Shown here: positions 29,847 to 30,268 of the stretch, one piece after another
Numbering within the stretch: position 1 is the first letter of the stretch
Layout of the letters: every line of letters begins with the position of its first letter
Assembly: GCF_051903065.1 (NCBI RefSeq)
Contig: NZ_CP178438.1
Length of the DNA stretch: 64,000 nucleotides
Origin: Escherichia coli
GTDB lineage: Bacteria; Pseudomonadota; Gammaproteobacteria; Enterobacterales; Enterobacteriaceae
Direction: 5' to 3' (one strand)
Notes under the pieces: model-generated
Database searches by the model: none
Told to the model about the DNA's origin: nothing
What the model saw: the letters and a program-made list of their open reading frames with translations, nothing else
Program-made: the position numbers and the translations under genes

Positions 29847-30268
29847 GCCATTACTCCTGTTGTTCTGAAAGGTGCAACTTAACGTTATCGTGAAATATCC
29901 ATGATGTTGCAACTTTGTGCAACCATGTTAAATGTGACTTGCGTAGCAAGCTTAAAAATGAATGAAATGTTAATAAAAGAAATCGATATGACAGGGATTA
30001 AAAAAATAACTCAGACTTTTTCTCTGCGGCAGTTAACATTTTTGAAAGGTGCAACCGCAAAAAATGTGAGAGAGTGCAACCTGATGAAAAATAGTGTCGC
30101 TGAGCACTAAAATTTAATGTAAATGGTGTGTTAAATCGATTGTGAATAACTAGCGCTTCCGGCAGGATACGGTCGCCCTGGTAAAACATAAACTCTGTTA
30201 CCCCGTTCCGGTGGCAGATATAACGGCAAGTTTCGACATTGCCGATAATAATTTTTTGGAGACTTTAG
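29847..30268. promoter_or_regulatory. Divergent putA/putP control region with several PutA operator motifs (GTTGCA)
   Basis: GTTGCA or TGCAAC at about 29874-29879, 29906-29911, 29918-29923, 30049-30054 and 30075-30080; AT-rich 422-bp intergenic region. Confidence 0.75.

What the first reader, a model, noticed from the sequence alone, without database searches (positions are those of the whole stretch)
29847..30268. PutA operator motifs in the put control region
At least five GTTGCA or TGCAAC hexamers, including an inverted pair at 29906-29923, lie between the divergent putA and putP genes, consistent with autoregulation by the PutA ribbon-helix-helix domain.
Basis: established knowledge. Interest (0 to 1): 0.2.

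Follow-up and report, generated by a model that had tools for sequence, protein, structure and literature searches.

The report
PutA operator sites between putA and putP
The repeated GTTGCA words between the E. coli proline-utilisation genes putA and putP are real, far above chance and conserved across enteric bacteria, and they are the already well-known docking sites through which the PutA enzyme represses its own gene and the proline transporter gene.

Summary
Observation confirmed, interpretation supported, biology already known. The 422-bp gap 29847-30268 lies between divergent putA (25884-29846, minus strand; trifunctional PutA) and putP (30269-31777, plus strand). It holds six GTTGCA/TGCAAC matches at five sites: 29873-78, 29906-13 (the 8-bp palindrome GTTGCAAC), 29918-23, 30050-55 and 30075-80. 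About 0.31 matches are expected (P about 1e-6), and GTTGCA is the most enriched hexamer in the gap. The window is E. coli. Its gap differs from K-12 at three bases, none in a hexamer. PutA residues 1-52 are identical to the crystallised ribbon-helix-helix domain (PDB 2GPE, 2RBF). In 80 Enterobacterales put loci the hexamer is 24-fold denser in the gap than in flanking genes. The block GTTGCAAC-N4-TGCAAC is present in 80 of 80. A TGCAAC pair 22-26 bp apart occurs in 64 loci, 53 of them at the window's 25-bp spacing. The site at 29873 occurs only in E. coli. The putA-proximal sites fall at +12..+17, -17..-24 and -29..-34 of the putA start; the other two lie 52-82 bp upstream of putP P1. I could not obtain the site-level primary paper (Zhou et al. 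2008), so that comparison rests on memory. Seen in passing: a covarying RNA hairpin in the putP leader next to a mapped 3' end.

The parts
25884..29846 (-). putA coding sequence (1320 aa): trifunctional repressor / proline dehydrogenase / P5C dehydrogenase
   Evidence: ORF list. NCBIfam NF008772 full-length match, 2653 bits. The annotated start in strains XH990 and K-12 coincides.
29691..29846 (-).
   Evidence: Identical over 52 of 52 residues to PDB 2GPE and 2RBF (PutA52). Residues 4-11 (TTMGVKLD) are invariant in 66-67 of 67 distinct orthologue sequences.
29847..30268 (.). put control region: 422-bp gap between divergent putA and putP, 38% G+C
   Evidence: At least 95% identical in 5420 of 5426 complete E. 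coli genomes. Three differences from K-12.
29873..29878 (-). PutA site nearest the putA ATG (TGCAAC on +; context AAAGGTGCAACT); about +12..+17 of the putA transcript; E. coli-specific
   Evidence: Part of a 16-nt direct repeat with the 30040-30055 site, 15 of 16 identical. Present only in the two E. coli loci among 80 and absent in E. albertii. Position relative to the start site is derived.
29906..29913 (.). PutA site: 8-bp palindrome GTTGCAAC, about -17..-24 of the putA promoter (spacer region)
   Evidence: Present in 80 of 80 loci. TGCAAC (29908-13) falls in invariant columns and the leading GT in columns at least 90% conserved in the 23-genus alignment.
29918..29923 (-). PutA site TGCAAC (GGTTGCACA on the putA strand), about -29..-34, overlapping the putA -35 region
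   Evidence: Present in 80 of 80 loci at a fixed 12-bp offset from the palindrome. Positions 29908-29923 are 16 consecutive invariant alignment columns.
30050..30055 (-). PutA site TGCAAC (context GGTGCAACC), -82..-77 of putP P1. Window 30041-30061, reverse-complemented, reads TTTGCGGTTGCACCTTTCAAA, which I recall as the 21-mer 'operator 2' crystallised with PutA52
   Evidence: Conserved in most genera, with 3 exceptions among 23. A TGCAAC pair 22-26 bp apart occurs in 64 of the 80 fetched loci (the same script also finds it in the window itself), 53 of them at exactly 25 bp. The identity with the crystallised oligonucleotide is from memory, not a tool result.
30075..30080 (-). PutA site TGCAAC (context AGTGCAACCT), -57..-52 of putP P1
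   Evidence: GTGCAACCT (30074-30082) forms nine consecutive invariant columns across 23 genera.
29894..29899 (-). Candidate putA -10 hexamer (GATATT on the putA strand); putA transcription start about 29889
   Evidence: The ATAT core is invariant in 64 of 64 distinct sequences. The start site is derived from the ArcA paper's supplement, which places site 29904-29934 at -15..-45 (PMC3798270). The hexamer assignment is my inference.
29904..29934 (+). Predicted three-repeat ArcA-P site ATGTTGCAACTTTGTGCAACCATGTTAAATG, lying on top of two PutA sites
   Evidence: PMC3798270 supplementary tables: ChIP peak at putA, site at U00096.2 1078163-1078193, putA 30.8-fold up in an arcA mutant. Coordinate mapping.
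30062..30083 (+). CRP-like site AAATGTGAGAGAGTGCAACCTG (perfect left half TGTGA, weak right half), centred about -60 of putP P1 and overlapping the 30075 PutA site
   Evidence: GTGA (30066-30069) is invariant across 23 genera. Reading it as a CRP site is inference from the consensus and was not tested.
30117..30149 (+). ArcA-P site at putP P1 (ATGTAAATGGTGTGTTAAATCGATTGTGAATAA); P1 transcription start at 30132
   Evidence: PMC3798270: DNase I footprint at -15..+9, site sequence in the supplement. P1 at -137 from the ATG in PMC2760140 Table 1. The block is strongly conserved.
30269..31777 (+). putP coding sequence (502 aa), Na+/proline symporter
   Evidence: NCBIfam NF011948, 1143 bits.

Best explanation
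These are the PutA operators of the E. coli put control region. PutA is a dimer held together by its N-terminal ribbon-helix-helix domains. The two-stranded beta-sheet of that dimer reads one GTTGCA word plus a few flanking bases in the major groove.

When proline is scarce, PutA is cytoplasmic with oxidised FAD and occupies the sites. The three putA-proximal sites cover the -35 region, the spacer and the early transcribed region of the putA promoter, so they block RNA polymerase directly. The two central sites lie 52-82 bp upstream of the main putP start (P1). One of them overlaps a conserved CRP-like half-site. They most likely repress putP by hindering an activator and/or upstream putP promoters.

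When proline is oxidised, the FAD is reduced, PutA moves to the membrane to act as an enzyme, and both genes are derepressed.

What is shown here: the positions, enrichment and conservation of the words; the identity of the reading domain to the crystallised one; and the positions relative to published start sites. What comes from papers read here: PutA binds this spacer, and only this spacer, and represses both genes. What is inferred or recalled: one dimer per hexamer, the promoter-occlusion geometry, the anti-activation idea for putP, and the redox-driven relocation mechanism.
For: Five sites (six hexamer matches) lie in 422 bp against 0.31 matches expected. P is about 1e-6, and GTTGCA is the top-ranked hexamer in the gap.

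The flanking genes are trifunctional putA and putP. The RHH domain is identical to PDB 2GPE and 2RBF. The gap matches K-12 apart from three bases outside the hexamers.

In 80 Enterobacterales loci the hexamer occurs at 11.5 per kb in the gap against 0.48 per kb in flanking genes. GTTGCAAC-N4-TGCAAC is present in 80 of 80. A TGCAAC pair 22-26 bp apart occurs in 64 of the 80 loci. Runs of 16 and 9 invariant columns sit exactly on these sites across 23 genera whose gaps otherwise average 56% column identity.

The PutA beta-strand residues 4-11 are invariant.

Genomic SELEX shows this spacer as PutA's single target (PMC8249747). The Kd is 45-58 nM for the 420-bp put control DNA (PMC5293562).

The sites map at +12..+17, -17..-24 and -29..-34 of the putA start, and at -52..-82 of putP P1.
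Against: The primary paper with the operator map is not held.

The 29873 site is not conserved outside E. coli. Extra non-core hexamers in other genera occur at roughly the rate chance allows (about 0.2 per gap), so comparative data alone do not prove that this site functions.

The two most conserved sites also lie inside a predicted ArcA-P site and over the putA -35 region. Part of their invariance may therefore serve other factors.

The two central sites do not overlap the core of putP P1, so the way they repress putP is not explained by simple occlusion.
Confidence: 0.93

Rival explanations
1. The conserved putA-proximal words are primarily ArcA-P repeats and promoter elements, not PutA sites. 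The block ATGTTGCAACTTTGTGCAACCATGTTAAATG would be kept because phosphorylated ArcA binds it to shut putA off anaerobically, and because it contains the -35 region.
For: PMC3798270's supplement lists exactly this 31-mer as a three-repeat ArcA site under a ChIP peak, with putA 30.8-fold derepressed in an arcA mutant. The conserved block extends beyond the hexamers into TGTTAAATGTGA.
Against: The middle repeat, which holds one hexamer, scores -0.1 bits for ArcA in that same table. The same hexamer recurs at 30050 and 30075, where no ArcA site is listed. Lineage-specific extra sites are again exact GTTGCA. SELEX with PutA alone selects this spacer. Overlap with ArcA is better read as dual use than as an alternative.
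Confidence: 0.03
2. The hexamers are half-sites of the nucleoside regulator CytR, whose published octamer consensus (AYGTGCAAC ... GTTRCATT) contains the same core.
For: The CytR consensus as quoted in PMC3454398 contains GTGCAAC/GTTGCA. The only other local cluster of the hexamer in this window (53896 and 53914, upstream of ycdZ) sits in the CRP-CytR cassette that paper predicts. Three put sites read GTGCAAC.
Against: CytR binds between two CRP sites. The only cassette geometry read here, the ycdZ one, has them at a conserved distance of 29-31 bp. The put gap has no such pair: the two CRP-like half-sites are 132 bp apart. put is not among the CytR regulon members listed in that paper. The put sites are flanked by C/G rather than the TT of GTTGCATT.
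Confidence: 0.02
3. The site at 29873-29878 alone is a recent chance or duplicated occurrence without regulatory function, leaving four functional operators.
For: It is present only in E. coli among 80 loci. E. albertii has GGTATAGC there. One extra hexamer per gap is within chance expectation (0.2-0.3). Salmonella, E. albertii and Kluyvera instead carry a different fifth site, GTTGCAAG, at the position where E. coli reads GTAGCAAG (29943-29950).
Against: Its extended context matches the 30040-30055 site at 15 of 16 bases (14 of 16 in K-12), well beyond the hexamer. It lies at +12..+17 of the putA transcript, a classic roadblock position. From memory, Zhou et al. 2008 found three sites necessary for putA repression.
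Confidence: 0.15

Closest known systems
E. coli K-12 put control region operators (five GTTGCA sites; Zhou et al. 2008, J Mol Biol 381:174; PDB 2RBF PutA52-operator complex)
   Same: Same species, same genes, and the same 422-bp gap with three substitutions outside the hexamers. The RHH domain is identical. The count of five sites and the 3+2 split between the putA side and the putP side match my recollection of that paper.
   Different: Nothing of substance. The strain differs from K-12 at 29866, 29939 and 30151. The first lies 7 bp from the 29873 site and changes its similarity to the 30040-55 repeat from 14/16 to 15/16.
Salmonella enterica put control region (Hahn et al. 1988; Ostrovsky de Spicer et al. 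1991)
   Same: Divergent putA/putP, a gap of about 420 bp, the identical GTTGCAAC-N4-TGCAAC block, and the 25-bp-spaced TGCAAC pair (loci L007 and others).
   Different: Salmonella lacks the E. coli site at +12..+17. It carries a fifth GTTGCA about 37 bp further from the palindrome, where E. coli reads GTAGCA.
Other ribbon-helix-helix repressors (Arc, Mnt, MetJ, CopG, NikR; CopG-family hits 6IYA and 7ETR)
   Same: Same fold and the same principle of a dimeric beta-sheet reading a short word in the major groove. Weak sequence similarity to CopG-family regulators (E about 2e-4). Closely spaced sites at 10-12 bp, as in the tandem sites of Arc and MetJ.
   Different: Here the RHH domain is fused to a 1270-residue enzyme, and repression is relieved by relocation to the membrane rather than by a small-molecule co-repressor. 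The operators are spread over about 200 bp.
CytR operators (octamer GTTGCATT repeats between two CRP sites)
   Same: They share the GTTGCA core word (PMC3454398). An example lies in this same window upstream of ycdZ.
   Different: Different flanking bases, no flanking CRP pair at the required spacing, a different regulator family (LacI), and put is not in the CytR regulon lists read here.

Membership tests
PutA (RHH) operators of the put control region | Located in the gap between divergently transcribed putA and putP | tested here: met
   putA 25884-29846 (-) and putP 30269-31777 (+), with all five sites in 29847-30268. The same arrangement holds in 80 of 80 related loci.
PutA (RHH) operators of the put control region | [quoted passage not shown] | tested here: met
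   NF008772 equivalog, 2653 bits over residues 1-1320. Residues 1-52 are identical to PDB 2GPE and 2RBF.
PutA (RHH) operators of the put control region | Each site contains the consensus word GTTGCA | tested here: met
   Exact matches at 29873, 29906/29908, 29918, 30050 and 30075. That GTTGCA is the published consensus is from my memory of Zhou et al. 2008, not from a document read here.
PutA (RHH) operators of the put control region | The words are over-represented locally and conserved in orthologous control regions | tested here: met
   P about 1e-6 and top-ranked hexamer. 24-fold enrichment in 80 loci, with four of the five sites conserved across genera. The 29873 site is E. coli-specific.
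PutA (RHH) operators of the put control region | Sequence equals that of the experimentally studied K-12 region | tested here: met
   Three substitutions in 422 bp, none in a hexamer.
PutA (RHH) operators of the put control region | Physical binding of PutA to each individual site, and loss of repression on mutation | not testable with these tools
   Only region-level evidence was read: a single genomic SELEX peak on this spacer (PMC8249747) and a Kd of 45-58 nM on 420-bp put DNA (PMC5293562). The site-level paper is not held.
ArcA-P direct-repeat sites | TGTTA-like repeats at 10-11 bp spacing under a ChIP peak, with expression changed in an arcA mutant | tested here: inconclusive
   Taken from the PMC3798270 supplement: site 29904-29934 with repeat scores 7.0, -0.1 and 10.3 bits, and putA 30.8-fold up. 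Only the putP site (30117-30149) was footprinted there. I did not rescore the sites myself.
CytR operators | Octamer repeats placed between two CRP sites at a fixed spacing | tested here: not met
   No pair of CRP-like sites brackets the put hexamers. The CRP-like half-sites are centred at about 29940 and 30072, 132 bp apart. Compare the ycdZ cassette at 53873-53935 and PMC3454398.

The most novel reading that the evidence does not exclude
The putA-proximal block (29904-29937) may be a composite operator. It would be shared by two repressors that report different signals: PutA for proline availability and ArcA-P for respiratory state. It is also superimposed on the putA -35 and spacer, which would explain why 30-odd bases are invariant from Escherichia to Erwinia. 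The 'fifth' PutA site, by contrast, turns over between lineages. It lies at +12..+17 in E. coli, about 37 bp beyond the palindrome in Salmonella, E. albertii and Kluyvera, and at other places in Pantoea. Repression strength of putA would then be tuned species by species through gain and loss of an accessory site.
Probability: 0.4. Interest if true: 0.25.

Novelty: already known. Interest (0 to 1): 0.1.

Why it matters
The finding matters little as a discovery. It re-identifies a textbook example of a 'trigger enzyme' that represses its own operon, in the organism where that was worked out. Its value is as a positive control: a reader working from sequence alone located the control region, the motif and the regulator correctly.

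The comparative data add modest detail:
- Four operators are fixed across Enterobacterales.
- The fifth operator is lineage-specific.
- The putA-proximal pair coincides with a reported ArcA site.

The more interesting lead is outside the finding. It is the conserved, covarying hairpin in the putP leader, next to a mapped RNA 3' end.

Tried and rejected
Literature
- I tried to read the site-level papers and reviews by id: Zhou 2008 (PMC2665032 and PubMed id 18586269), Tanner 2008, Singh and Tanner 2012, Larson 2006, Gu 2004, a guessed id for a second Zhou 2008 paper, the 2011 Antioxid Redox Signal review cited in PMC5293562 (PMC3113445), Zhu 2013 and Muro-Pastor 1997. None is held.
- Full-text searches for GTTGCA together with PutA or 'proline utilization' returned nothing relevant.
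- Two reviews that mention operator sites gave no site detail.

Computation
- An Rfam scan of the gap found only chance-level hits. The best was 18 bits against a gathering score of 55; the PutA thermometer family scored 14.9 against 51.
- The consensus promoter scan found one weak candidate (30084-30113) that does not match the published starts, so I did not use it.
- Whole-window enrichment of GTTGCA is absent. Only local enrichment is meaningful.

Readings rejected
- The 69-aa 'hypothetical protein' that PGAP annotates across the operators (29901-30110) is not a real gene. That frame stays open for 60 codons or more in only 6 of 81 sequences, with a median of 24 codons.
- CytR does not explain the put hexamers (see rivals).
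- The MFE fold of the putP leader is not more stable than shuffles (z = -0.44), so energy alone does not support a structure there. The covariation does.

Full report
**What is in the sequence**

The interval 29847-30268 is exactly the non-coding gap between two divergent genes.

- On the minus strand, an ORF ending at 25884 has its biological start at 29846..29844. This gives a 1320-aa protein that matches the NCBIfam equivalog for trifunctional PutA over its full length (NF008772, 2653 bits, cut-off 1750).
- On the plus strand, 30269-31777 encodes PutP (NF011948, 1143 bits).

An exact scan finds GTTGCA or its complement at 29873(-), 29906(+), 29908(-), 29918(-), 30050(-) and 30075(-). That makes six matches at five sites, because 29906-29913 is the palindrome GTTGCAAC.

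Because of the palindrome it can equally be read as two TGCAAC copies 10 bp apart.

**Is it more than chance?**

Over the whole window the hexamer is at its expected frequency (53 matches against 53.8 in shuffles). The enrichment is purely local:

- The gap holds 6 matches where 0.31 are expected (Poisson P about 1e-6).
- Only 1 of 20,000 dinucleotide-preserving shuffles of the gap reaches 5.
- In an unbiased ranking of all hexamers in the gap against the rest of the window, GTTGCA comes first.
- No other 422-bp stretch of the window has more than 4 matches.

**Where the window comes from**

The gap is 100% identical to E. coli strain XH990. It is present at 95% identity or more in 5420 of 5426 complete E. 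coli genomes. Against K-12 MG1655 it differs at 29866, 29939 and 30151, none of them in a hexamer.

Window coordinates plus 1,049,036 give U00096.3 coordinates. Window coordinates plus 1,048,259 give the older U00096.2 coordinates used in some papers.

**The reader of the motif**

PutA residues 1-52 are identical to the crystallised ribbon-helix-helix domain PutA52 (2GPE, 2AY0, and 2RBF, which from memory is the DNA complex). They are clearly related to the Pseudomonas putida PutA45 domain (2JXG-2JXI).

**Comparative test**

One scan of species-representative genomes with PutA residues 1-260 returned 80 Enterobacterales loci, from Escherichia to Yersinia, Serratia, Pantoea and Erwinia. All 80 have putP divergent from putA, with gaps of 375-700 bp.

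- In these gaps GTTGCA occurs at 11.5 per kb, against 0.48 per kb in the flanking coding DNA.
- The block GTTGCAAC-N4-TGCAAC is present in 80 of 80 loci.
- A pair of TGCAAC words 22-26 bp apart occurs further on in 64 of the 80 loci, 53 of them at exactly 25 bp as in the window.

In a 23-genus alignment with a mean column identity of 56%, two runs of consecutive invariant columns fall on the sites. Positions 29908-29923 form a run of 16. GTGCAACCT at 30074-30082 forms a run of nine. The 30050 site is conserved in 20 of 23 genera.

The PutA beta-strand residues 4-11 are invariant in 66-67 of 67 distinct orthologues. Reader and word are therefore conserved together.

The 29873 site is the exception. 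It exists only in the two E. coli loci, and E. albertii reads GGTATAGC there. Salmonella, E. albertii and Kluyvera instead have a GTTGCA where E. coli reads GTAGCA (29943-48). Other genera have extra sites elsewhere.

Such extras occur at roughly the chance rate, so comparison alone cannot prove that the 29873 site functions. Its 16-nt context, however, matches the 30040-30055 site at 15 of 16 bases.

**Position relative to promoters**

- **putA.** The supplement of the ArcA regulon paper (PMC3798270) places a site equal to window 29904-29934 at -15..-45 of the putA start. This puts the start at about 29889. The PutA sites then fall at +12..+17, -17..-24 and -29..-34. A conserved GATATT (29899-29894 on the putA strand) fits a -10 element, by my inference.
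- **putP.** Published starts are P1 at -137 (window 30132), P4 at -95 and P5 at -13 (PMC2760140). P1 agrees with the ArcA footprint at -15..+9. The two central PutA sites therefore lie at -52..-57 and -77..-82 of P1, upstream of the core promoter.
- **CRP-like site.** The 30075 site overlaps a CRP-like sequence whose TGTGA half is almost invariant (GTGA in all 23 genera).

My reading is that the putA-side sites act by occlusion. The putP-side sites would act by interfering with activation or with upstream promoters. This part is inference.

**What the literature read here says**

[quoted passage not shown] On proline it moves to the membrane (PMC5879082; PMC8249747).
- Genomic SELEX gives this spacer as the only PutA target in the genome.
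- Full-length PutA binds the 420-bp put control DNA with a Kd of 45 nM, and an RHH chimaera binds with 58 nM (PMC5293562).
- The site-resolved paper (Zhou et al. 2008) is not held. From memory, its abstract reports five operators, each with GTTGCA: three critical for putA and two for putP. This fits the layout found here but is not a tool result.

**Rivals**

- **ArcA.** The ArcA paper lists ATGTTGCAACTTTGTGCAACCATGTTAAATG as a three-repeat ArcA site, with putA 30.8-fold up in an arcA mutant. The two best-conserved PutA sites are therefore also claimed for ArcA. I read this as overlap rather than replacement. The repeat holding one hexamer scores -0.1 bits for ArcA. The same word also recurs where no ArcA site is listed.
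- **CytR.** CytR shares the GTTGCA core (PMC3454398). The only other cluster of the word in the window lies around ycdZ (53779-54140). Its 53896/53914 pair sits between two CRP-like sites in the predicted ycdZ cassette. The put gap lacks that geometry.

**Verdict**

The feature is already known, so interest is low.

**Seen in passing**

- **Hairpin in the putP leader.** It spans 30195-30217 (CTGTTACC-CCGTTCC-GGTGGCAG). The octamer CGTTCCGG (loop plus the first two bases of the 3' arm) was the search anchor, so it is identical by construction; it is kept in 69 of 81 sequences (56 distinct). Six of its eight stem pairs show compensatory changes: 89.7% of cells are paired, against 68% in shuffles and at most 47% when partners are slid.
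- **Strand of the hairpin.** RNAalifold finds the same hairpin on its own. U-G pairs greatly outnumber A-C mismatches, which points to an RNA on the putP strand.
- **A mapped 3' end beside it.** A Term-seq 3' end classed as not Rho-dependent maps 7 nt downstream, at window 30224 (PMC7815308 supplement). Rfam has no family for the element.
- **Small ORFs.** K-12 annotates the 8-codon ymdG at 30084-30110. PGAP annotates a 69-aa ORF across the operators, which is not conserved.

Noticed in passing
window 30195-30217 (+), with a mapped RNA 3' end at 30224: A conserved hairpin in the putP 5' leader, about 63 nt before the ATG. The octamer CGTTCCGG (loop plus the first two bases of the 3' arm) was the search anchor, so it is identical by construction; it is kept in 69 of 81 sequences (56 distinct). 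The 8-bp stem has compensatory changes at 6 pairs: 89.7% of cells paired against 68% in shuffles, covariation score 0.725 against 0.30. The excess of U-G pairs points to an RNA on the putP strand. A Term-seq 3' end classed as not Rho-dependent lies 7 nt downstream (PMC7815308 supplementary file 3). There is no U-tract after the stem and no Rfam family. It may be an uncharacterised attenuator, a processing stop or a leader-derived small RNA.
   Followed up: partly
window 30155-30177 (+) and 30226-30246 (+): Two further conserved leader elements. The first is the box GCTTCCGGCAGGATACGGTCGCC, which can form a small CCG/CGG hairpin presenting GGA in its loop, a CsrA-like motif (this reading is speculative). 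The second is a hairpin CGGCAA-N9-TTGCCG that covaries between genera but is deleted in some.
   Followed up: no
window 29904-29934 and 30117-30149: Two ArcA-P sites are reported in the put gap (PMC3798270 supplement). The first coincides with two PutA operators and the putA -35 region. The second, which was footprinted, covers the putP P1 start. Both blocks are among the most conserved in the 23-genus alignment.
   Followed up: partly
window 29901-30110 (+) and 30084-30110 (+): RefSeq/PGAP annotates a 69-aa 'hypothetical protein' (WP_000979516.1) that starts on the operator palindrome in most E. coli genomes. That frame stays open for 60 codons or more in only 6 of 81 sequences, so the call is probably spurious. 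K-12 instead annotates the 8-codon ymdG (MKNSVAEH) at the end of the same frame. Its ATG is missing in Salmonella and most other genera.
   Followed up: partly
window 53873-53935 (between ycdY and ycdZ): This is the only other local cluster of GTTGCA in the window. TGCAAC (53896) and GTTGCA (53914) form an imperfect palindrome between two CRP-like sites (TGTGA-N6-TCACT and TGTGT-N6-TCTCA). This matches the CRP-CytR cassette predicted for ycdZ/nupT in PMC3454398.
   Followed up: partly
loci L050 (Shimwellia), L073/L080/L081 (Enterobacter cancerogenus, Pantoea), L025, L051, L061, L072: The operator architecture varies by lineage. Shimwellia has three TGCAAC units at 10-bp spacing after the palindrome. 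Some Pantoea and relatives carry a second GTTGCAAC palindrome about 110 bp further on. Klebsiella oxytoca, Serratia and Yersinia have gaps expanded to 550-700 bp, with the core block shifted away from putA.
   Followed up: no
(E. coli genome collection): Seven of the 5428 matches to the put gap lie on plasmids rather than chromosomes, and a few genomes hold two copies or only a partial copy (for example H12, 36% covered). I did not examine these.
   Followed up: no
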